Shown here in pieces: positions 2,775 through 59,507 of a stretch of 64,000 nucleotides of DNA. The position numbers were made by a program, and so were the translations under genes. Within the stretch, counting starts at the first letter, position 1; every line of letters begins with the position of its first letter. This stretch comes from an uncultured Methanosarcinales archaeon (GTDB taxonomy: Archaea; Nanobdellota; Nanobdellia; Woesearchaeales; DATDXC01), in contig CAZDZV010000006.1 in NCBI GenBank assembly GCA_964510025.1, forward strand, positions 11,143 to 75,142. The letters run 5' to 3'. The notes below the pieces were generated by a model. It saw only the letters and a list, made by a program, of their open reading frames with translations. It had not been told where the DNA came from and searched no databases.

Positions 2775-4134
2775 ACATTATTTTTTTCTTGTTTCTTTGC
2801 GTCATTATGCATAGTAATATTAGTATGAATACCAGAACTGACAGTGCTACCAAAGCAATGTCTTTTGCGGACTTTTTTTGCGATTGGAGTATTATCTCCT
2901 GCATAATCTCTTCCTCGGTGATTCCGCTGATAGCAACATTTTCTAGATTATAGCCTTCTGCTTTAAAGTACACAAATTTTTCATCTTCATCGACCTTAAT
3001 GGTATTTAGCTTTTCCCACTGGTTTGTTTTCTGAATCCTGTTGTATAGGTATACGTCGTTTTCAGTGAGTTGATTGGTTTGCAGCCATGTTTTCTCCACC
3101 TTAAAGGTAAACACCACTTTCTCAACATCATCATCATCCATATTTCTTTTGACTATCTCAAACTGGCTATATGCTATGCCAGGTGGTTCGCTTGCAGCGA
3201 AAGCCGGTAGCACGCTTTTCACAGCCATGCCTACATTCTTGACTTTCTTTTTCGTAAAGATGGAGATGCTTTCTATAGCCATGCCATCCAGTACAACATT
3301 GACCGGCTTATCAGGGGTAATCTCCTGGTATCTGATCTTTTTCTGAATGATCTCCACAGGTGCTACCGCAACTGGCTGATCGGCGGTGGGAGCAGCGCTT
3401 CCTGCCCCGCCACCGCCGCCTCCGCCGCTGCATACCCCGCAATCCTGGGGGCAAGTCGAGCATGTTTCATCCGGACTGCAAGTCCCATCACCGCAGTCAG
3501 AGACAGCATCGACAGTAAAATAGGCATAGTTTGTCCTTACATTGTTTTCTGAATCATTTGCATAGATCTGGATTAGATATTCGCCATCCGCCAGGTCTTC
3601 GATATTTATTTCGCTGAAATTGCATTCCCTGCATAAGGTGATATTTGCTCCGCCATCAAAGCTATACCAGATTGTATCATTGTAATCCCTTATGGTTGTT
3701 GCATTCACCACAACAGAATCCTCGTCATAAGCTGTAGTTGACGGCGCATCGATTGAGACGATTGCCAGCAATTGCATTACCGGAGCTACGTTATAGGCAC
3801 CATAATCAGTAGTTAAGCTCACAGAATTAGATACATAGTTACCTTCATTATCCACCATCTTTGCATGCAAAATATCACCAGCATTCCAATCATAACTAGG
3901 TATCAAATCAGGATCGCAACAGTAAACATTGTCCCATGCATTTACAATACAGGAATCATTATTCGGTTCAGTATTCTCTGTGTAGATTACTACCTCTCTC
4001 CAAGCTGGTTCAGTTCCATCATAGGCGTTGCTGATTTCCCCACAGATTAAGGGAGCCCCAATAGCATTTATGCTCAGTAAAAAAAATACGGATATGTACA
4101 GTAGCACAAATTTATTCTTGTTGCCAGTTAACAT
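2767..4134 (-). CDS. Secreted cell-surface protein with Gly-rich linker and C-terminal TM anchor plus Lys-rich tail
   Basis: Signal peptide, many N-x-S/T sequons, Cys-rich stretch CGDGTCSPDETCSTCPQDCGVCSGGGGGGGAG, C-terminal hydrophobic helix IALVALSVLVFILILLCIM followed by QRNKKK. The 3' end overlaps the 3' end of the convergent gene by 8 nt. Confidence 0.45.
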   Translation of the reverse strand: MLTGNKNKFVLLYISVFFLLSINAIGAPLICGEISNAYDGTEPAWREVVIYTENTEPNNDSCIVNAWDNVYCCDPDLIPSYDWNAGDILHAKMVDNEGNYVSNSVSLTTDYGAYNVAPVMQLLAIVSIDAPSTTAYDEDSVVVNATTIRDYNDTIWYSFDGGANITLCRECNFSEINIEDLADGEYLIQIYANDSENNVRTNYAYFTVDAVSDCGDGTCSPDETCSTCPQDCGVCSGGGGGGGAGSAAPTADQPVAVAPVEIIQKKIRYQEITPDKPVNVVLDGMAIESISIFTKKKVKNVGMAVKSVLPAFAASEPPGIAYSQFEIVKRNMDDDDVEKVVFTFKVEKTWLQTNQLTENDVYLYNRIQKTNQWEKLNTIKVDEDEKFVYFKAEGYNLENVAISGITEEEIMQEIILQSQKKSAKDIALVALSVLVFILILLCIMTQRNKKKIMFS

Positions 4135-52036: not shown

Positions 52037-52966
52037 CTAAATTATGATGTCTTTTAGGATTCCTTGTTTTACTAATTCGATATTTATCAAGTAATCATTA
52101 TGCAGAAAAGTTTCAAATAATGATTTCTTTGTTGTTTTCCATCCAAGACCATCGGTAATCCAAATTAAGTCGATTCCTTGTTTTCTTAAGAAGTCTGATA
52201 AGTACTGATATTCACCAGCTGTTGACTTTAATTTTGACCCACCGCCACTATAATAATTGGTTTCAATTACAAAAATCTTATTTTTTGATTTCTCAAATAC
52301 TGCAAAATCAAATATTCGATTGGTTTTATCAAGTTCAATATCAAAATTCCATTTCTCCTTGATCTTTTTTTGTGTTGCTTGCGGAATGTAGTCCAAGTTA
52401 TTTTTCTCTGAGAATTTCAGTATTATCTTCTCAACAATGCTCTCCATTGATTGACCTGTACGGTTTTTTCTTGCATTTGTATCCATTCCTACTTCGACAC
52501 CAAAGCAATAGTCAACAATATTCTTAACATTTTTATCTTTGAATATACTTTTTAATCCCGATTCCTTAAAGAAAATTAGTATGTCTTCTCTTATATCTGA
52601 AGTAAGCTCAACATCAGGATTAAATAATTCCAGTTTACTACCAGACTTTAGCTCTTCAAAATCATCAATGATGTTTACTGCCTTTAATTTGCTTTTTCTG
52701 ATAGCAATGAGAATTGGAAGAACCTTTCTTACATTTGGATATTCAGTAATAAGTTCAATGAATTCTTTTTCTATATCGCTTTTTCCAATTAACACATTAA
52801 GAAGATTTAGCTCTTTTTCAATTAAGTGAGTGTTATTCTTAACTTTCTCAAAATCAACAAAATAATCCCATGTAAATATGGAATCTGTCAAAGTTTGTAC
52901 AAGATAGTCAAATATCCCTTTCTCATCTTTTAGGTTTAATTTTTCATATGTTTGTAAGTATTTCAT
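52037..52966 (-). CDS. Putative type II restriction endonuclease (DpnII/MboI-like by context)
   Basis: 309 aa, 10 bp downstream of a Dam-class MTase in an operon with two MTases, the dpnM-dpnA-dpnB-like arrangement. Family assignment is contextual, not motif-based. Confidence 0.45.
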   Translation of the reverse strand: MKYLQTYEKLNLKDEKGIFDYLVQTLTDSIFTWDYFVDFEKVKNNTHLIEKELNLLNVLIGKSDIEKEFIELITEYPNVRKVLPILIAIRKSKLKAVNIIDDFEELKSGSKLELFNPDVELTSDIREDILIFFKESGLKSIFKDKNVKNIVDYCFGVEVGMDTNARKNRTGQSMESIVEKIILKFSEKNNLDYIPQATQKKIKEKWNFDIELDKTNRIFDFAVFEKSKNKIFVIETNYYSGGGSKLKSTAGEYQYLSDFLRKQGIDLIWITDGLGWKTTKKSLFETFLHNDYLINIELVKQGILKDIII

Positions 52967-52975
52967 TTCTTCACC

Positions 52976-53809
52976 TTAATAGTTTGTAACGACAACTTCA
53001 TTTATCTTTCCCCTTTTGTCCCCATTACAATTGATCATTCTTGTTGCCTGAACAAAATGGATTTCATAATTAGGATATAATTCTTTAATAAATTTTGTAT
53101 CGCTATTGCTTAACATCACAAGGCAACCATTATCATCCAGTTTTTTGAATACTTCAGCAAGCTGTTTCTGCTCTTCTTCTAAAAATGTGTCTTTTGTGTA
53201 GGTTGTAAAACTCTTTCCTTTTTTAAGTGGATAATAAGGAGGATCAAAATAAATAAAGTCTCCTTTATTTGCTAGATTAACAACCTTTTCGAAAGACATT
53301 ACTTTAATCGTAACATTTTTCAATAATTCTGAAACTAGTCTTAATCTATCTTCTTGGACAATATCTGGATTTTTGTAGGAACCCATCGGAACGTTGAATT
53401 TTCCCTTTGAGTTTACTCTATATAGTCCATTGAAGCAAGTCTTATTTAAATAAATGAATCGTGCTGCTCTTTCAAGAGAAGGTAATTCTTTTGGATTTGT
53501 TGCACGAATTGTTAAATAATATTTTTTGCCTTCAACCATATGATATTCCTTATGCTGTTTTAATTCAATTATTAATCTCTCTACATCACCCCTTATGGTT
53601 TCGTAAGCATTGATTAATTCTTCATTTATGTCTGAAATAATAATTTCAGAAGGATTAAACTTTTGAATTATATAGAAGAAAACTGCTCCGCTACCAACAA
53701 AAGGCTCTAAATAGCGATTAAACTTCTTTGGAAATAATGGCTCAAACTGTTCTAAAAGTTGACCTTTACCGCCTGCCCATTTAACAAATTTGGGGATTTG
53801 GATATTCAT
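52976..53809 (-). CDS. Dam-class (alpha) N6-adenine DNA methyltransferase
   Basis: KWAGGKGQLL (motif X), EPFVGSGAVFF (motif I), IYFDPPYY (motif IV), in alpha order. Confidence 0.85.
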   Translation of the reverse strand: MNIQIPKFVKWAGGKGQLLEQFEPLFPKKFNRYLEPFVGSGAVFFYIIQKFNPSEIIISDINEELINAYETIRGDVERLIIELKQHKEYHMVEGKKYYLTIRATNPKELPSLERAARFIYLNKTCFNGLYRVNSKGKFNVPMGSYKNPDIVQEDRLRLVSELLKNVTIKVMSFEKVVNLANKGDFIYFDPPYYPLKKGKSFTTYTKDTFLEEEQKQLAEVFKKLDDNGCLVMLSNSDTKFIKELYPNYEIHFVQATRMINCNGDKRGKINEVVVTNY

Positions 53810-55563
53810 TTTTTATTCTCCACCAATTCAGAAACAAATACTTTTAAATTGTCTGTTACCAAATAACTTTTTTCTAATAATTTTTCACATATCATCTTAC
53901 AAATATACTTTTTCAACCCTTCATCACAGAAATTAATCACTTCTTTATCTGAATTTTTACTTTTTATCTTTTCAGTTGCAAAATTCAAAATTTCACTATT
54001 ATTATATGCCTGATTTGTTCTTTCCTTAAATTCATCATAAGCCATAATAGTATAGTGGTTTCTTTTATCTTTTAAAAATTCATTAATTGTTTCTAAAATT
54101 AATTTTGGTTCAAAAATATCTTCAATCTCAAAATTAGCTACATTATTTTCATAATTATCAAAACGCTTAACATATTTACATTCTACACTAAAACAGTTAT
54201 ATGTTTTTGACTTTATTTGTTGAAATATACTTTTTCCAGCTGTATCAAAATCAAAAAGTGCGATAATTTTTGGCTTAAAAGATAGATTATTGCAAAACAA
54301 TTCTAGAAATTGTAGGTAACCTTTATATTTATCAACCCCTCCTGCAACAAGAATATTAGGTTTGATAATTTTTAGTTGTTCAAATAATGCAAATAAATAA
54401 TCTTTATCTTCCTGTCCTTCCACCAATAGATTGAAAGGCAAGATCTCCCAAGAATCATTCTTAGAAATTCCTAGGTGCTCTTTGACCATGTACACTTTTT
54501 CAATACCTGCAGCATTATTTATTCTTGTATTTACTTCATAGAATTTCTCGTCTTTTTTCCTGATGTATTCTTTTAATTGTATATCTGCTTCTAGCAAAAC
54601 TACTTCTTCCACTTTCTCAAGCCGTATAAAATTTGGAGAATGTGTATTAATAATGGTTTGATATTTTTTTGAAAGTTGAAACAAGATATCACTTACCCTT
54701 TTCTGAAGTGATGGTTGAAGAAATGCTTCTGGCTCGTCAAACCCCCAGATAATCTCTTTTCCAGTTTTATCAGATATATATTCGATTAAAGAGTATAAAA
54801 CAATTCTCTGAATTCCGCTCCCTTTTGTTTCAATTTTGTTTGAATTGCTATCAATCAGAGTAAAATCAATTAAATCAGATAAAACTTCTCGTAAGTTAAT
54901 GTATTTTGGGAATAGAATTTCTGCCCTCCATAATGAATTATCTATCCCATTAATTCCATTTGTATATTTTTTGATATTTTCAGTAAGTTCTTTTTTTATT
55001 TCTACTAATGCCTTTTCAGATTCTTCAATAAAAGTATTCAAATGTTCCATTGGTTTTGTTTTTCTTTTTCTCAGATTATCCAGGGGAGTTAATAATTCAT
55101 TACTAACAAACCTTGCAATCTCTTTAGAAGTGTCAATATTACTAGCTTCGACCATAATAAATTGATATTTATTTAGAACATTTTTACAATCTTTATCGCT
55201 CATTAGGGTTTCTTGTTTACCTTTTACTTTTATTTTGCCCTCTATCGTTAATGATTTGATTCCCTTTTTCTGCTCTTTATATGTTGTAGAAATAGTAATT
55301 CTATCTTGATTTTTATTAACAAATTCAGCTGTGATTTTTGTTCTGAATCCTGCTCCTCTTTTTCCATAGTAGATATGATGAGGAATATCCTCGTTAGCAT
55401 TAAATTTATTTTCGTCTAACGAGAAGAACAAATTTATAGCTCGTAATACATTTGTTTTACCAACATTATTTGAACCACAAATGATTTTATAGTTATCATT
55501 AGAGAAATCAATCTTTAACTTACTTATTGATCTGTAATTACTTATACTTATTTTCTTTAACAT
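53806..55563 (-). CDS. OLD-family ATP-dependent nuclease: ABC-type ATPase (AAA_15/21-like) fused to C-terminal Toprim
   Basis: Walker A ICGSNNVGKTNVLRAI, Walker B/D-loop IIWGFDEPEAFLQPS, Toprim glutamate LLVEGQEDKDYL and DxD LFDFDTAGKS. 4-nt overlap with the Dam gene start. Confidence 0.75.
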   Translation of the reverse strand: MLKKISISNYRSISKLKIDFSNDNYKIICGSNNVGKTNVLRAINLFFSLDENKFNANEDIPHHIYYGKRGAGFRTKITAEFVNKNQDRITISTTYKEQKKGIKSLTIEGKIKVKGKQETLMSDKDCKNVLNKYQFIMVEASNIDTSKEIARFVSNELLTPLDNLRKRKTKPMEHLNTFIEESEKALVEIKKELTENIKKYTNGINGIDNSLWRAEILFPKYINLREVLSDLIDFTLIDSNSNKIETKGSGIQRIVLYSLIEYISDKTGKEIIWGFDEPEAFLQPSLQKRVSDILFQLSKKYQTIINTHSPNFIRLEKVEEVVLLEADIQLKEYIRKKDEKFYEVNTRINNAAGIEKVYMVKEHLGISKNDSWEILPFNLLVEGQEDKDYLFALFEQLKIIKPNILVAGGVDKYKGYLQFLELFCNNLSFKPKIIALFDFDTAGKSIFQQIKSKTYNCFSVECKYVKRFDNYENNVANFEIEDIFEPKLILETINEFLKDKRNHYTIMAYDEFKERTNQAYNNSEILNFATEKIKSKNSDKEVINFCDEGLKKYICKMICEKLLEKSYLVTDNLKVFVSELVENKK

Positions 55564-55579
55564 TATTTCCCCAGTATAG

Positions 55580-56365
55580 TCAAATAAGCTTATTCTTTAT
55601 AGAGTTTATCCTTTTTATTGTGGTTTTTAAAAAATTCTCCTCTTTATCAATACCTATAAATTGTCGATTAAGCATACTTGATACAACCCCTGTAGTACCA
55701 GATCCATTAAATGGATCTAGTACAACGGCATTTTCTTTTGTTGAAGATGCGATAATTCTTCTCAATAATTCTATTGGCTTTTGAGTGGGATGCTTTCCAT
55801 GAGTCTTTTCGCTCATTGGAGTTAACGGAATATGCCAAATGCTCCTCATTTGTTTACCTTTTGGAGCAATATTATCATCCCATTCCCTCATTAAATCATA
55901 ATTAAAAACATGAGGAATCTTCCCATCTTTTCTTGCCCATAAAACAGTTTCATGTGCATGAGCAAAATACCTGCAGCTTAAATTTGGTGGTGCATTAGGT
56001 TTAAACCATGCAATTTCATTTAATAATTTGAAATTGAGCTTTTGTAACGCATATCCTACTTGGTATATATTATGCATTGTCCCAGAAATCCAAATAGTAC
56101 CATTATCTTTTAATACCTTACGACATGCATTTATCCATTCATAAGTGAATTTGAAATCTTTGTCTATTCCATTAGATTTATCCCAGTCTGCTTTATTAAC
56201 TGAGACCATTTTACCAGCCCTGCAAGAGATCCCTCCGTTAGATAGGAAATAAGGTGGATCTGCAAAAACCATATCAACAGATTTTTCAGGTAATGTGTTT
56301 AGAATACTAATACAATCATTATGGAAAAGTTGCACAGTTTCAGACTTGTAATAGGGTTTAATCAT
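55580..56365 (-). CDS. Beta-class N6-adenine/N4-cytosine DNA methyltransferase (DpnA-like)
   Basis: VFADPPYFLSNGG (motif IV) near the N-terminus and DPFNGSGTTG (motif I) near the C-terminus, the beta-class order. Confidence 0.8.
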   Translation of the reverse strand: MIKPYYKSETVQLFHNDCISILNTLPEKSVDMVFADPPYFLSNGGISCRAGKMVSVNKADWDKSNGIDKDFKFTYEWINACRKVLKDNGTIWISGTMHNIYQVGYALQKLNFKLLNEIAWFKPNAPPNLSCRYFAHAHETVLWARKDGKIPHVFNYDLMREWDDNIAPKGKQMRSIWHIPLTPMSEKTHGKHPTQKPIELLRRIIASSTKENAVVLDPFNGSGTTGVVSSMLNRQFIGIDKEENFLKTTIKRINSIKNKLI

Positions 56366-56495
56366 TTATAAATCTAATAAAGTCCTTTATTATAAACTTT
56401 GTTATTAAACTTTCGAAATATTACTATTTTCTTTGCAATGAGCCGTCTCATCGCCCCCTCTCTTCGCAGATCCTTCTATATACAATGCAAGCCTT

Positions 56496-57113
56496 ATGTA
56501 TTACATACTCCGAACGTTGCTTATAAACGATGGGAGCCTTAAATTAGGTGGTGATAAAATGACCTTGGAATATAAGCGTGAACCTCTAGAAGAGGATGAA
56601 GTGTTGGCTTTAAGGAGAGCATCTACTTTCTTTGAAGAAGAATTAGTTATAAACTGTCTGTTAGATACTGGCATGAGAGTATCAGAGCTTGCCAACCTAA
56701 GAGAAGAAAATATCTCCTGGCAAAGAAACTGTATCAGCTTGATAGGAAAAGGTAATAAGCGTAGGGTGATCCCAATGAGTAAAAGAGTAAGGCTACTCCT
56801 ATTAGACTGTTTTTCTCACAATAATACCAAATTTCCATTAGCCATGCGAACAATCCAAAAATATGTTAAAATCGTGGCAGACAAGGCAAGGATAAGAAAA
56901 ACTGTAAGCCCTCACGTGCTAAGACACACATTTGCAGTAACCTATCTTCACAGAGGAGGCAATTTAAGGGCATTACAGGCTATTCTAGGGCATAGTTCCA
57001 TAACAACTACTGATATTTACCTCAACTACTCAGGGAAGCGAGTTATTGATGATTTTCAAAGAATATGGAATGAGCCAGATACAAATAACAAGTTATTGAC
57101 GGGGTATTTTTAA
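56496..57113 (+). CDS. Short tyrosine recombinase (catalytic domain only)
   Basis: TGMRVSEL (Arg), HVLRHTFAVTYL (HxxR), GHSSITTTDIYLNY (catalytic Tyr). The likely true start is the internal ATG near 56559 (MTLEYK...). Confidence 0.7.
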   Translation: MYYILRTLLINDGSLKLGGDKMTLEYKREPLEEDEVLALRRASTFFEEELVINCLLDTGMRVSELANLREENISWQRNCISLIGKGNKRRVIPMSKRVRLLLLDCFSHNNTKFPLAMRTIQKYVKIVADKARIRKTVSPHVLRHTFAVTYLHRGGNLRALQAILGHSSITTTDIYLNYSGKRVIDDFQRIWNEPDTNNKLLTGYF

Positions 57114-57115
57114 AA

Positions 57116-58162
57116 ATGGCAAAAAACATCTTCTTTTTTATTATTAAGCATGGAGCTTTGCTTGGCATAGCATTTCCATTTATATTATCCATAAAAATAA
57201 GCACATCTCCTTTTGGTTTGGTACATTTAGTGTTAACCCTAATTATTTTGGAATACTATGCTTATTCCATACACCAGTTTTTATTTGATTTTCAGGATAA
57301 AAGAAGAAAGTTAAGAATAAAAAAATTTGAAGAGTCTAAACTGATTGATAAATTCCTAAATGCTAAATTAGATTACTCTAAATCTTCAGAACTATTAGAG
57401 TTAATTTCTATTATAAAGAATACAGAATTCTTGCCAAAATTAAAAGAAATGTATAATCAGAAAATCGAAGAAAAAATGATTTATGCTGAAAGACTACTTG
57501 AGAAATTACAGCACCAAGAAGAAATACAAGAACTTGAGCTGAAGAAAAGTCAACTTAATAACAACATTCAATATCTAATAAAGCAAGAAAAGGAGATGAC
57601 TCAAACAGAAGAAGAAAGGAAGGAAGATCTAAAGGGGGAGATGAATCTTGAAGAAAATAAGGTGTTTGAAGAGTCAGATCTTACTGATGAAAAAGCAAAT
57701 TTTCTTCTGGAAGAAGGATACGAACAAACCAATCAATATTCAATTATGGAAGAAGGAAATATCTCGGTTTATATCAAACCCGTACTTAATCATTCAAAAT
57801 CACATATGTTTTTGGTTTACGAATTAAAGCAGATTTTGGAACATTGGTATGAAGCTGAAAACATAGAAGAGCATCTAACAAAGGATGCAGACCTTACTTT
57901 CAAGTATAACAAGAAAATCTACGCTCTGGAAGTTGAGACAGGAACATTGCTGAAAAAGAAAGACCAAGCTAGAGATAAAGTAGAATATCTAAATAGGAAA
58001 TATCAAAACAGATGGATGTTCATAGTAACAAATAGAAACCAAGTGGCTAAATACAAGAAATTAGGAATAGTCAGTGAGAGAAAGCAGGTGACAAAAAATC
58101 TTGATAAGATGCTAAAACTCCGCACCCCCCTAGATCGGGTGTCTGAGGAATTTCCCGACTAA
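57116..58162 (+). CDS. Membrane-anchored coiled-coil protein with C-terminal PD-(D/E)xK/Hjc-like motif
   Basis: Two N-terminal TM helices, a ~150-aa coiled coil, then HMFLVYELKQ...DADLTFKYNKKIYALEVETGTLLKKK...RWMFIVTNRN, which fits a D...(E/D)xE...K restriction-endonuclease-like core. 3 nt after the integrase stop. Confidence 0.3.
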   Translation: MAKNIFFFIIKHGALLGIAFPFILSIKISTSPFGLVHLVLTLIILEYYAYSIHQFLFDFQDKRRKLRIKKFEESKLIDKFLNAKLDYSKSSELLELISIIKNTEFLPKLKEMYNQKIEEKMIYAERLLEKLQHQEEIQELELKKSQLNNNIQYLIKQEKEMTQTEEERKEDLKGEMNLEENKVFEESDLTDEKANFLLEEGYEQTNQYSIMEEGNISVYIKPVLNHSKSHMFLVYELKQILEHWYEAENIEEHLTKDADLTFKYNKKIYALEVETGTLLKKKDQARDKVEYLNRKYQNRWMFIVTNRNQVAKYKKLGIVSERKQVTKNLDKMLKLRTPLDRVSEEFPD

Positions 58163-58215
58163 AAAATCACTAAAATAGTCACTTATTCAATCTCCGTATA
58201 ATATCACTTCTTATA

Positions 58216-58977
58216 TTACATAAGGCTATTTTCCAGCTTCTCAATTTTTACAAGCATCTCGTACTTCTCTTTGAATTCTTCCATACTTAACTCTCCCTCC
58301 ACATACTTCATCTTGAGTGCTTCCAATGGTTCAATTGTAGATTCTTTTGTGGATTGCTTCGGCTCTCTCTTCGTACCAAAAGCCATGTTTATCTTGTTTT
58401 GTAAGTCTTTATTTGTAATGTAAGCATAGATTTGGGTAGTATGGATATCAACATGCCCAAGAGATCTCTGAACATAGTAGAGGTCGACTCCTTTTTCTAG
58501 TAGATAGGTTGCATAGGTATGTCTCAATGTATGAAAACTGTAAGCATACCTTTGCTGTCCAAGTTGTGTTTTGAAAGTCTCGATACTAAGCTTAGCTTTC
58601 AGAAGATATTTTCTAAAATGCTTGCTTAAAATGTTGTTAGCAAATGGTCTTCCAGAATAGTTTGAAATAAAATACTCTGATTCATCTGAAAGCCTGAACC
58701 ATTTCTCAATCAATGGTTTGACTTTTTCAGGTAGCATCACTACTCTGTCTTTGCTACCTTTTCCCTGTCTTACAATTACCCTTTCAGCTTCAAGATCAAC
58801 ATCTTGTTTTTTCAGATTGCAGACTTCACTTATACGCAGACCACAAAACAAGGCAATAATACAGCCCATAAATATATTTGCATCATCAATCTGCTCAAAA
58901 AGTGCCATTAATTGCTTTTTATTGAAAACATTAGGTAGTTTTCTTTTTGTATTTGGTCTCCCGAATCTCATCTTCAC
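58216..58977 (-). CDS. Tyrosine recombinase/integrase (XerC/D-like catalytic domain)
   Basis: GLRISEV (Arg), HTLRHTYATYLL (HxxR), GHVDIHTTQIYAYI (Tyr). Confidence 0.8.
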   Translation of the reverse strand: MKMRFGRPNTKRKLPNVFNKKQLMALFEQIDDANIFMGCIIALFCGLRISEVCNLKKQDVDLEAERVIVRQGKGSKDRVVMLPEKVKPLIEKWFRLSDESEYFISNYSGRPFANNILSKHFRKYLLKAKLSIETFKTQLGQQRYAYSFHTLRHTYATYLLEKGVDLYYVQRSLGHVDIHTTQIYAYITNKDLQNKINMAFGTKREPKQSTKESTIEPLEALKMKYVEGELSMEEFKEKYEMLVKIEKLENSLM

Positions 58978-59381
58978 ATCCTCGCAATAAGGTTTAATCC
59001 ATGATCCCTGATCACTTGGGTTACATCTTCAAACCTTTCCTGTCTTCGCTTTAAAGCCTCAGAAACCGCTTTTTTCTGCGATATAGTCCTCTGCTTGATC
59101 TGGAACTTGATGTCAATCGGAATCTTTTCTAAAAGCAACCATCTGTAAACCGTAAAGGGGTTATAGCTACTTTTGATAAGAAAATCATACAACTCCTTCT
59201 CTAGCCCAAGAACTAGAAACTTCTTCCTATTATAATGAAAATGAGCTAATTTACCCATAATCTGCAAGAAATCACGACTCTCTAGCTGAGGAAGACGACT
59301 ATATACCAATTTCCTCAAGCATTCTAGCTTCTGGACAAAATTTTTCTGCATATCTGCTTGTTTCACGACCGACACCCCCAT
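58974..59381 (-). CDS. Hypothetical protein 4-nt coupled upstream of the integrase (possible detached N-terminal core-binding domain)
   Basis: 135 aa, basic and helical. 135+253 aa equals the usual full-length integrase size. Confidence 0.3.
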   Translation of the reverse strand: MGVSVVKQADMQKNFVQKLECLRKLVYSRLPQLESRDFLQIMGKLAHFHYNRKKFLVLGLEKELYDFLIKSSYNPFTVYRWLLLEKIPIDIKFQIKQRTISQKKAVSEALKRRQERFEDVTQVIRDHGLNLIARM

Positions 59382-59507
59382 GTCAGCTCAATAAGAAAGA
59401 AAAGACCGACGTGAACTCACAAGATGCAGAATCTATAAATCTTTCTATTATTTACTATTAATTAGTAATAACATATCCTTAAAAATATTGGATTATCTAT
59501 ACAATAT

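What the first reader, a model, noticed from the sequence alone, without database searches (positions are those of the whole stretch)
57116..58162. Membrane-anchored coiled-coil protein with Hjc/PD-(D/E)xK-like C-terminus, sandwiched between two convergent tyrosine recombinases
Architecture is 2 TM, a ~150-aa coiled coil, and a C-terminal ~120 aa with D-ADLTF ... ALEVETG ... LLKKK, consistent with a restriction-endonuclease-like core (EVE in place of the usual EVK). The start codon is 3 nt after the integrase stop, so it is co-transcribed with a recombinase. It is a candidate abortive-infection effector or segregation/toxin component of the element. No described family comes to mind.
Basis: inference. 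Interest (0 to 1): 0.6.

Follow-up and report, generated by a model that had tools for sequence, protein, structure and literature searches.

The report
Membrane-tethered nuclease partner of archaeal integrases
This gene encodes an unannotated, membrane-anchored protein with a restriction-enzyme-like nuclease domain; in tiny DPANN archaea it is the constant companion of the integrase in small integrating mobile elements, and it always carries its own conserved DNA/RNA signal, which points to an undescribed step in how these elements are processed or moved.

The parts
57116..58162 (+). Target CDS, 348 aa: membrane hairpin, helical stalk, wing subdomain and PD-(D/E)xK domain. The family-conserved protein ends near residue 336; the tail is a read-through.
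57128..57280 (+). N-terminal transmembrane hairpin (residues ~5-55), followed by the KRRKLRIKK cluster. The C-terminal domains are inferred to be cytoplasmic (positive-inside rule).
   Evidence: 71 of 109 full-length members have 2 TM; mean net charge +2.6 after the last TM
57281..57643 (+). Long helical stalk (residues ~56-176), a putative coiled coil or dimerisation region. It is poorly conserved in sequence.
57656..57775 (+). Small beta-alpha-beta-beta 'wing' subdomain (residues 181-220) with conserved L189, L197 and the G-Y/F motif.
57791..58117 (+). PD-(D/E)xK core (residues 226-334). Conserved residues and codon positions: H226 (57791), H230 (57803), D259 (57890), E272 (57929), E274 (57935), Q284, K288 (57977), W300, R322.
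   Evidence: invariant H230, D259, F262, E272, E274 and K288 in 141 sequences
58119..58212 (+). Family-specific conserved non-coding element. Parts: hairpin GCACCC...GGGTGT (58122-58142); TTTCCCGAC box (58151-58159; TCGACG in most loci); stop codon (58160-58162); AGTCAC box (58177-58182); AT-rich site CTCCGTATAATATCAC (58192-58207). Variable cargo starts just after it in related loci.
   Evidence: 3 of 6 stem pairs with compensatory changes; covariance model: one hit per locus, 37 of 40 sources, always at the 3' end of the gene; window 53 bits, E = 4e-7
56496..57113 (+). Short tyrosine recombinase with a catalytic domain only. The probable true start is M22 at 56559, preceded by GGTGGTGAT. It is 62-85% identical to counterparts in other module loci.
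58216..58977 (-). Second, convergent tyrosine recombinase (253 aa) with a SHOCT-like C-terminal tail. It lacks an N-terminal core-binding domain.
58974..59381 (-). Small ORF (135 aa) overlapping the start of the 253-aa recombinase gene. It is a conserved fourth gene of the module, with no family match.
59433..59446 (-). Conserved archaeal BRE/TATA-like promoter AGAAAGATTTATAG upstream of the 135-aa ORF. Similarity between loci is lost a few tens of bases beyond it, which marks the right edge of the module.
56497..56513 (+). Conserved motif GTATTACATACTCCGA, about 50 nt upstream of the short recombinase. It marks the left edge of the module, and the flanking genes differ between loci.
52037..56365 (-). 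Adjacent low-GC (0.29) cargo or island, not part of the conserved module. It holds a DpnII endonuclease, a Dam methylase, an OLD-family ATPase-Toprim protein and an N4/N6 methylase.

Best explanation
The gene encodes the window's member of an undescribed family, found so far only in archaeal MAGs that are mostly DPANN. The protein is tethered to the membrane by an N-terminal TM hairpin. It is held on a long helical stalk and ends in a wing subdomain plus a PD-(D/E)xK nuclease domain. The metal-binding triad is D-E-E (D259, E272, E274; the BamHI/MOBC-relaxase variant), with an invariant Lys on the following helix (K288) and an invariant His on the first helix (H230).

The gene is not cargo. Together with a tyrosine recombinase it forms the constant core of small integrative elements. 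In this window that core is a compact ~3-kb module of two recombinases. Elsewhere it sits in 7-8 kb tRNA-integrated elements that carry DGRs, toxin-antitoxin pairs or R-M genes.

Proposed mechanism (inferred): the protein is a divalent-metal-dependent DNA endonuclease or nickase. It recognises the ~95-nt conserved element next to its own gene (hairpin, TCGACG box, GTCAC box and AT-rich site). It would cut or process element DNA there, at the cytoplasmic face of the membrane, in concert with the integrase. This could be resolution or linearisation of the excised element, initiation of its replication or transfer, or preparation of the adjacent cargo-insertion site.

Shown: the fold, the invariant residues, the gene linkage, the element boundaries, and the exclusive association of the cis element with this gene. 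Inferred: catalysis, the substrate, the topology, and cooperation with the integrase.
For: - Active site: D259, E272, E274, K288 and H230 are invariant in 141 representatives that are only 22-63% identical. H226 is H in 123 sequences and E in 15.
- Family size and host range: 549 clusters at 50% identity. All 32 genome-collection loci are archaeal MAGs, mostly DPANN, and several MAGs carry more than one copy.
- Linkage to recombinases: a tyrosine recombinase is present in 34 of 40 loci and lies directly upstream on the same strand in 25, with gaps of 2-56 nt or overlaps. Three different recombinase types are involved: short ~170-205 aa, ~395 aa with a PF00589 hit, and a ~390-415 aa clade 55-64% identical among its members.
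- The coupling survives loss of the membrane anchor and stalk: L042 has a 167-aa version 2 nt after a short integrase, and L043 has a 186-aa version after a 388-aa integrase.
- Integrated elements: a tRNA gene abuts the integrase in 9 loci. 16-17-nt direct repeats of tRNA-gene sequence delimit elements of ~7, ~7.9 and ~8.3 kb in L026, L008 and L022.
- The window's four-gene module recurs in L004, L011, L012, L021, L029, L033, L034 and L042, and partly in L005 and L013, with different flanking genes.
- Cis element: one covariance-model hit per locus, only at the 3' end of this gene, in 37 of 40 sources (578 kb searched), including loci held out of the model. It stays with this gene even where the integrase is elsewhere or on the other strand, as in L008 and L001. 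The stem shows compensatory changes.
- Cargo boundary: L011 and L012 stay similar up to the last base of the AT-rich site, then differ by 34 nt versus a 1309-nt HEPN+MNT insert.
- Precedents from the literature: MOBC relaxases are BamHI-like PD-(D/E)xK enzymes with a D-E-E motif that act on an oriT (PMC6736028). The SSV1 d244 nuclease is co-transcribed with the viral integrase (PMC3367457).
Against: - No biochemical evidence exists, and the canonical beta3 lysine is missing (E274), so catalysis is inferred from conservation alone.
- The conserved 3' element could instead be an RNA feature, such as a 3' UTR, a terminator or an antisense RNA. G-U versus C-A counts in the stem only weakly favour the sense strand (10 versus 4 cells), and the window copy is not unusually stable (z = -1.15).
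- The elements contain no recognisable replication, conjugation or virion genes that would give a processing nuclease a downstream machine.
- The nuclease domain evolves faster than the neighbouring integrases (C-terminal domain 49-51%, whole protein 34-64%, against 57-85% for the recombinases). That pattern also fits a conflict or defence gene.
- Gene calls in the related loci were crude ORF calls.
Confidence: 0.42

Rival explanations
1. Defence or exclusion effector. A membrane-tethered nuclease degrades incoming foreign DNA at the entry site, or kills the infected cell as in abortive infection, and so protects the element's host against viruses or competing elements.
For: - The gene lies beside R-M, OLD, AbiEii, HEPN/MNT and WYL genes in the window and in other loci.
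- It evolves faster than the adjacent integrases.
- It is multi-copy in some MAGs.
- Membrane anchor plus nuclease is a common effector layout (general knowledge).
Against: - None of the 5027 PADLOC models matches.
- This gene is the constant element while the defence genes vary from locus to locus.
- It is operonic with the integrase in 25 of 40 loci, and the coupling persists in versions without a membrane anchor.
- It has its own conserved cis element, which defence effectors normally lack.
- No sensor or partner gene co-varies with it.
Confidence: 0.25
2. Addiction (post-segregational killing) module. The nuclease is a toxin, and the conserved 3' element encodes or forms an RNA antitoxin (an antisense or cis-acting RNA overlapping the 3' end of the gene). 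This stabilises the integrated element.
For: - A conserved, partly structured ~95-nt element overlaps or abuts the stop codon in 37 of 40 sources.
- Its AT-rich end resembles a TATA box that could drive an antisense transcript ending in the T-runs opposite the Lys-rich C-terminus (sequence inspection).
- Small integrative elements often carry stabilisation modules, and disrupted copies exist (L020, L025, L027).
Against: - There is no BRE-like motif next to the putative antisense TATA box (inspection).
- The wobble-pair pattern weakly favours the sense strand.
- No Rfam family matches.
- Type I toxins are small peptides, not ~350-aa proteins (general knowledge).
- Tight translational coupling to the integrase is unusual for a toxin.
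Confidence: 0.13
3. Non-catalytic DNA tether. The nuclease-fold domain only binds the element's cis site and anchors the excised circle to the membrane, for segregation or for packaging into vesicles or cell-cell bridges.
For: - The canonical beta3 lysine is absent.
- Membrane anchor, long stalk and a DNA-binding-like wing are present.
- The cis element is adjacent.
- Inactive PD-(D/E)xK domains used for binding are known (general knowledge).
Against: - Absolute invariance of D259, E272, E274, K288 and H230 across 141 divergent representatives is what a metal-dependent active site would show. The D-E-E variant is catalytically competent in BamHI and in MOBC relaxases (PMC6736028).
- Versions without a membrane anchor exist.
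Confidence: 0.1
4. Accessory factor of diversity-generating retroelements, for example processing cDNA or the target site. Alternatively, the gene is itself a DGR target whose 3' end is the variable region, followed by the usual hairpin.
For: - A DGR-type reverse transcriptase lies next to the gene in 18 of 40 loci, usually convergent and immediately downstream.
- The TR/VR pairs there show 100% adenine-specific mismatches.
- A hairpin just after the stop codon resembles the layout of DGR target sites (general knowledge).
Against: - More than half of the loci, including this window, have no RT.
- No TR-like copy of the gene's 3' end exists in any locus.
- The C-terminal domain is conserved, not hypervariable.
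Confidence: 0.04

Closest known systems
PD-(D/E)xK (restriction-endonuclease-like) superfamily. The closest solved folds are VC1899/Card1/Can2 nuclease domains, Bax1, NgoMIV, Hjc and VRR-NUC.
   Different: No sequence-level match to any member family. The motif is E-x-E rather than E-x-K, with the invariant Lys on the next helix and an invariant His on helix 1. It also has an N-terminal membrane hairpin and stalk. It is not specifically Hjc-like.
MOBC relaxases (TraX of pAD1, MobC of CloDF13) and BamHI
   Same: These are PD-(D/E)xK enzymes that use a D-E-E metal-binding motif (PMC6736028, citing Francia et al. 2013). They are encoded on mobile elements next to the cis site they cut (oriT with inverted repeats). 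Here the triad is D259/E272/E274 and a hairpin-containing conserved element lies next to the gene.
   Different: No sequence similarity could be tested because MobC could not be extracted from the CloDF13 record. There is no tblastn hit in 72,556 plasmids. No conjugation genes lie in the elements, the hosts are archaea, and there is no evidence of nicking.
SSV1 d244 / SSV-RH D212 fusellovirus nuclease
   Same: It is a PD-(D/E)xK nuclease of an archaeal integrative element, encoded next to the tyrosine integrase and in the same transcript. Its function is still unresolved, and the proposals include integration specificity, copy-number control and resolution of intermediates (PMC3367457).
RmuC (bacterial DNA recombination protein)
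   Same: The overall architecture, recalled from general knowledge, is the same: an N-terminal membrane anchor, a long coiled coil and a C-terminal PD-(D/E)xK domain.
   Different: RmuC (Pfam) was not among the reported matches for the window protein at E <= 1, nor among the 25 most-matched families listed for the 141 members at E <= 0.01. RmuC is bacterial and has no integrase linkage or cis element.
CoiA nuclease-like domain (PF06054)
   Same: Three of 141 family members give weak hits (best E = 9.5e-4). A phage 'competence protein' appears among the BFVD fold hits. It is also a PD-(D/E)xK domain involved in DNA processing.
   Different: The hits are weak and isolated (3 of 141 members), and the window protein does not match. 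CoiA is a soluble bacterial protein.

Membership tests
PD-(D/E)xK nuclease superfamily | Alpha-beta-beta-beta-alpha-beta core fold | tested here: met
PD-(D/E)xK nuclease superfamily | Conserved acidic residues at the start of beta2 and in beta3 (D ... D/E-x-K) | tested here: met
   D259 and E272 are invariant in 141 representatives.
PD-(D/E)xK nuclease superfamily | Lysine two residues after the beta3 acidic residue | tested here: not met
   The position is E274, invariant. An invariant K288 lies on the next helix. The same E-x-E variant occurs in BamHI and in MOBC relaxases (PMC6736028), so this does not exclude superfamily membership.
PD-(D/E)xK nuclease superfamily | Metal-dependent phosphodiester cleavage | not testable with these tools
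   Needs biochemistry.
Hjc archaeal Holliday-junction resolvase family | Sequence match to the Hjc family, and a small (~120-140 aa) soluble dimer with an E...D...E-x-K motif | tested here: not met
Known anti-phage defence systems (PADLOC-DB v2) | Match to any model of a defence-system protein | tested here: not met
   0 families at E <= 1 for the target. The neighbouring 585-aa protein does match Old/AriA/GajA models.
RmuC | Match to the RmuC family model | tested here: not met
   RmuC is absent from the reported Pfam matches of the window protein at E <= 1 and from the 25 most-matched families listed for the 141 members at E <= 0.01. Only the architecture resembles it.
MOBC relaxases | D-E-E metal-binding motif on a BamHI-like PD-(D/E)xK fold | tested here: met
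   D259/E272/E274 are invariant. BamHI is among the Foldseek hits (rank 50, E = 0.54). The motif definition is taken from PMC6736028.
MOBC relaxases | Sequence homology to TraX/MobC, site-specific nicking at an oriT, and association with conjugative transfer | not tested
   MobC could not be recovered from the CloDF13 record. There is no tblastn hit in PLSDB. Nicking is not testable here. One member (P0156, L040) is fused to a TraG/VirB4-type P-loop domain.
DGR variable (target) proteins | A variable repeat at the 3' end with a cognate template repeat that differs at adenines | tested here: not met
   No second copy of the gene's 3' end was found in any locus. True TR/VR pairs in the same loci belong to other genes.
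Core gene of tRNA-integrating tyrosine-recombinase elements | Located between att-type direct repeats together with an integrase that abuts a tRNA gene | tested here: met
   Met in related loci. A tRNA abuts the integrase in 9 loci, and 16-17-nt repeats delimit elements in L026, L008 and L022. Not met in the window itself, which has no tRNA in 64 kb; there the gene sits in the two-recombinase module.

The most novel reading that the evidence does not exclude
The protein is an archaeal functional analogue of a relaxase or replication initiator. In this reading it is a membrane-tethered, D-E-E-type PD-(D/E)xK nickase that cuts the hairpin-containing element next to its own gene. That cut would launch replication or cell-to-cell (or vesicle-mediated) transfer of small integrative elements among DPANN archaea and their hosts. 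It would be the first DNA-processing enzyme identified for horizontal transfer in this superphylum, and it would define a minimal mobile unit of integrase, nickase and cis site that shuttles DGRs and defence genes.
Probability: 0.18. Interest if true: 0.85.

Novelty: new variant of a known kind. Interest (0 to 1): 0.6.

Why it matters
DPANN archaea are abundant and have reduced genomes, yet almost nothing is known about how their mobile elements move. This analysis defines three things.

- A large, wholly unannotated protein family (at least 549 clusters at 50% identity) with an intact-looking nuclease site.
- The family's near-obligate pairing with three different kinds of tyrosine recombinase.
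- A cognate ~95-nt conserved element that marks the border where cargo is exchanged. The cargo includes textbook DGRs, toxin-antitoxin pairs and R-M systems.

Together these give a concrete, testable handle on the life cycle of DPANN integrative elements: one small protein domain, one DNA or RNA site and a few point mutants. They also bear on how diversity-generating retroelements spread in these lineages. If the nuclease proves to be a relaxase- or Rep-like initiator, it would fill a long-standing gap in archaeal horizontal gene transfer. If it proves to be a defence or addiction effector, it would add a new membrane-tethered nuclease type to archaeal immunity.

Tried and rejected
- Known-family assignment failed. 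There were no meaningful Pfam, NCBIfam, PHROG or PADLOC matches. PDB sequence and profile searches gave only a spurious PCNA strand match. No source in the 5.8-billion-protein database gives a name beyond 'hypothetical' for the members returned, apart from one apparently unrelated 'predicted hydrolase (HD superfamily)' label.
- Viral or plasmid origin was not supported. There was no relative in IMG/VR by pattern scan, none in INPHARED phages or PLSDB plasmids by tblastn, and only generic REase-fold hits in BFVD.
- The AFDB Foldseek library was not available.
- An invertible segment was considered. The 14-nt inverted repeat 56490-56503 / 58214-58227 (I25) flanks the short recombinase and the target, but no equivalent exact inverted repeat exists in the homologous modules. 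It is left unexplained.
- The idea that the target is a DGR variable gene or a DGR accessory factor was rejected.
- The idea that the 3' element is the tRNA-type att site was rejected. It lies inside the att-delimited elements of L026, L008 and L022.
- The 3' element matches no known RNA family. The window copy folds no better than shuffled sequence (z = -1.15), and only the first hairpin is supported by covariation.
- 'Stand-alone' short homologs were checked. P0147 is a contig-edge fragment, whereas P0149 and P0171 are genuine anchor-less versions.
- A sequence comparison with the MOBC relaxase MobC of CloDF13 was not possible. The PLSDB record lacks the gene annotation and its ORFs look frameshifted.
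- The heptad periodicity of the stalk was weak in a crude test, so 'coiled coil' remains a prediction.
Full report
**Observation.** The ORF at 57116-58162 (+) exists exactly as described and encodes 348 aa. It is flanked by a tyrosine recombinase ORF on the same strand (56496-57113; PF00589, E = 7e-28) and by a second, convergent one (58216-58977, minus strand; PF00589, E = 1.5e-32). The upstream stop ends at 57113 and the ATG is at 57116, a 2-nt spacer. Further upstream lies a low-GC (0.29) block holding a DpnII endonuclease, a Dam methylase, an OLD-family ATPase-Toprim protein and an N4/N6 methylase. The gene is real: its closest homologs reach E = 6e-133.

**Anatomy of the protein.** AlphaFold2 with an 8-sequence alignment gave a confident model (mean pLDDT 83.8). 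A model of the C-terminal 168 aa alone gave pLDDT 87.6 and pTM 0.82.
- Residues ~5-55 form a two-helix hydrophobic hairpin. A crude hydropathy scan finds 2 TM segments in 71 of 109 full-length family members.
- The 20 residues after the last TM carry a mean net charge of +2.6, so the rest of the protein is inferred to be cytoplasmic.
- Residues ~56-176 are long helices. Heptad periodicity is weak, so 'coiled coil' remains a prediction.
- Residues 183-220 form a small beta-alpha-beta-beta wing.
- Residues 228-304 form an alpha-beta-beta-beta-alpha-beta core.

**Conservation.** A profile of the C-terminal domain recovers 549 cluster representatives at E <= 1e-3, of which 380 are at E <= 1e-10. 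Nearly all are 330-380 aa with the domain at the C-terminus. In an alignment of 141 of them (22-63% identical to the window protein), the invariant residues are H230, D259, F262, E272, E274 and K288. H226 is His in 123 and Glu in 15. Q284, W300, Y313 and R322 are nearly invariant.
- D259 sits at the start of beta2, and E272 and E274 sit in beta3.
- The motif is therefore D...E-x-E rather than D...E-x-K, with the invariant lysine on the following helix.
- The literature describes this D-E-E arrangement for BamHI and for MOBC-family relaxases (PMC6736028).

**Is it a known family?** No.
- The window protein has no match of note in Pfam, NCBIfam, PHROGs or PADLOC.
- Scanning all 141 members against Pfam gives only three weak CoiA_nuc hits and one TraG P-loop hit, the latter from a fusion protein.
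- PDB sequence and profile searches find nothing real.
- Among the members returned from the 5.8-billion-protein database, sources give no name beyond 'hypothetical protein', apart from one apparently unrelated 'predicted hydrolase (HD superfamily)' label, and none has a precomputed Pfam domain.
- There are no relatives in IMG/VR by pattern scan, in INPHARED phages or in PLSDB plasmids.

**Where it occurs.** All 32 loci found in one-genome-per-species contigs come from archaeal MAGs. Most are DPANN (Nanoarchaeota, Woesearchaeota or Pacearchaeota), a few are binned as Methanosarcinales, and a few are labelled only 'archaeon'. Several MAGs hold two or three copies.

**Gene neighbourhood.** I clustered crude ORF calls over 40 loci and cross-checked them by tblastn.
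- A tyrosine recombinase is present in 34 of 40 loci. It is the gene directly upstream on the same strand in 25, with gaps of 2-56 nt or overlaps.
- Three different recombinase types fill this position. They are short catalytic-domain-only proteins (170-205 aa, as in the window), ~395-aa PF00589 integrases, and a ~390-415-aa clade whose members are 55-64% identical to one another.
- The coupling survives loss of the membrane anchor and stalk. In L042 a 167-aa domain-only version starts 2 nt after a short integrase that is 68% identical to the window's. In L043-L045 a 186-aa version follows a 388-aa integrase.
- Where the integrase is not adjacent, a small divergent gene without family matches precedes the target and an integrase lies a few kb away.

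**The window's module is a recurrent unit.** The order is short recombinase, target, convergent 253-aa recombinase, then a 135-aa ORF. This order recurs in L004, L011, L012, L021, L029, L033, L034 and L042, and partly in L005 and L013.
- The flanking genes differ: acetyltransferase, a Cys-rich secreted protein, an RT, or R-M genes.
- The module has conserved end features. On the left is a motif, GTATTACATACTCCGA (window 56497-56513). On the right is a BRE/TATA-like promoter, AGAAAGATTTATAG, for the 135-aa ORF (59433-59446, minus strand).
- The recombinases are 57-85% identical between loci, whereas the target is only 34-64% identical.

**Larger elements.** In 9 loci a tRNA gene abuts the integrase. 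In L026, L008 and L022, 16-17-nt direct repeats of tRNA-gene sequence delimit integrated elements of about 7, 7.9 and 8.3 kb. Each contains the integrase, the target and cargo. The cargo is often a genuine diversity-generating retroelement.
- An RVT_1 reverse transcriptase is present in 18 loci.
- In 9 loci, every one of the 6-17 mismatches in each of the 14 TR/VR pairs examined falls on a template adenine.
- Rfam's RT-16 RNA lies beside two of the RTs.
- Other cargo includes AbiEii, HEPN/MNT, WYL and R-M genes.

The target is thus the constant partner of the integrase, and the defence-type genes are the variable part.

**A conserved cis element.** A ~95-nt non-coding element follows the target's stop codon in nearly all loci. 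It has four parts.
- A hairpin, ACACCC-loop-GGGTGT. Three of its six stem pairs show compensatory changes.
- A TTTnTCGACG box.
- An AAAGAGTCAC box.
- An AT-rich near-palindrome, CTCTGTATATATGTATATA.

A covariance model built from 34 copies finds exactly one hit per locus in 37 of 40 sources (578 kb, both strands). The hit is always at the 3' end of the target. This includes loci left out of the model, and loci where the integrase is distant or on the other strand. Degenerate versions follow the anchor-less variants.

In the window the element is 58119-58212. Its hairpin and first box are read through as the disordered last 12 codons of the ORF. It matches no Rfam family. It is internal to the att-delimited elements, so it is not the tRNA-type att site. 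Sequence similarity between related loci ends at the last base of the AT-rich site: L011 has 34 nt there, where L012 has a 1309-nt HEPN+MNT insert. L029 and L005 carry other inserts at the same place.

**Interpretation.**
- Shown: a PD-(D/E)xK fold with an invariant D-E-E/K/H constellation, a membrane hairpin in most members, near-obligate linkage to tyrosine recombinases inside small integrative elements, and a private conserved cis element at the border of the variable cargo.
- Inferred: the protein is a metal-dependent endonuclease or nickase that recognises that element. It would process element DNA at the cytoplasmic membrane face together with the integrase.
- Two literature precedents make this plausible. 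MOBC relaxases are BamHI-like D-E-E enzymes acting on a nearby oriT (PMC6736028). The SSV1 d244 nuclease is co-transcribed with the viral integrase, and its role is still unresolved (PMC3367457).
- One family member is fused to a TraG/VirB4-type P-loop ATPase. This is a single short contig and weak evidence.

**Rivals.**
- A defence or exclusion effector fits the neighbourhood and the faster evolution. It does not fit the constant pairing with integrases, the private cis element, or the absence of any PADLOC match.
- A toxin with an RNA antitoxin encoded by the 3' element is possible. It lacks promoter evidence, and the wobble-pair counts weakly favour the sense strand.
- A non-catalytic tether is disfavoured by the invariant acidic triad.
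- A DGR role is rejected. No TR copy of the gene's 3' end exists, and most loci, including the window, lack an RT.

**Verdict.** The fold inference and the 'no described family' statement are supported. 'Hjc-like' and the link to OLD/R-M cassettes are not specifically supported, and the Abi/toxin function remains open. The finding is a new, sizeable family within a known superfamily, in a gene context not described in the literature I could search. Interest is 0.6: the function is unresolved, but the system is now sharply defined and directly testable.

Noticed in passing
window 58119-58212 (+); equivalent positions in L001-L038: A ~95-nt conserved non-coding element follows the target gene in 37 of 40 sources. 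It has a covarying hairpin, a TCGACG box, a GTCAC box and an AT-rich near-palindrome. It matches no Rfam family. In the window its first half is translated as the ORF's disordered tail.
   Followed up: yes
L003 2504-2594 vs 2847-2934 and 3646-3733; L008 6849-6932; L026 3656-3741; also L013, L022, L024, L027, L030, L032: Textbook diversity-generating retroelements lie next to the target gene. In the 14 TR/VR pairs examined, each pair has 6-17 mismatches and 100% of them fall on template adenines. The variable repeats lie at the 3' ends of ~250-aa genes. An AAA_5 ATPase and a ~590-aa protein recur nearby.
   Followed up: partly
L003 2597-2768 (-), L013 1827-1972 (-): Rfam RT-16 RNA (RF03019; 90 and 78 bits) lies close to the DGR reverse transcriptase genes.
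   Followed up: no
L011 4439/4474 vs L012 10553/11863; L029 8690-9610 vs L034; L005 1212-2363: There is a 'cargo slot' between the AT-rich end of the conserved element and the stop codon of the convergent recombinase. Related modules hold 34 nt, a HEPN+MNT pair (1309 nt), a 292-aa gene or a 383-aa Cys-rich gene at the same point. This suggests site-specific cassette exchange.
   Followed up: partly
window 56496-56560: The mechanical start of the short recombinase ORF (ATG 56496) is probably wrong. Homologs start at the equivalent of M22 (ATG 56559), which is preceded by GGTGGTGAT. The conserved motif GTATTACATACTCCGA (56497-56513) then lies in the upstream region.
   Followed up: partly
window 56490-56503 and 58214-58227; 56499-56507 and 58211-58219: AGCCTTATGTA / TACATAAGGCT is a 14-nt inverted repeat flanking the short recombinase plus target. 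TATTACATA occurs at both places as a direct repeat. The exact inverted repeat is not conserved in the homologous modules, so its meaning is unknown.
   Followed up: partly
window 58216-59381 (-): The 253-aa recombinase matches Xer-type models only from about model position 85 onward, so it lacks the N-terminal core-binding domain. The 135-aa ORF overlaps its start by 4 nt and always accompanies it. It might supply the missing DNA-binding part as a separate polypeptide.
   Followed up: no
window 52037-56365 (-): This low-GC (0.29) block holds a DpnII-type R-M system (endonuclease and Dam methylase). An OLD-family ATPase-Toprim gene sits between the Dam methylase and a second, N4/N6 methylase. 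Homologs of both methylases lie downstream of the target in L015.
   Followed up: partly
L040 1-1192 (protein P0156): In one family member the nuclease-like domain is fused to the C-terminal half of a TraG/VirB4-type P-loop ATPase. The reading frame stays open to the contig edge, so the real protein is longer. It is a single 1.3-kb contig, so a chimeric assembly cannot be excluded.
   Followed up: partly
L025, L032, L038 (one MAG); L016, L020; L022, L024; L036, L037: Several DPANN MAGs carry two or three copies of the integrase-target pair on different contigs. Disrupted copies exist (L020 15878-16117, L025, L027), as expected for mobile-element genes.
   Followed up: no
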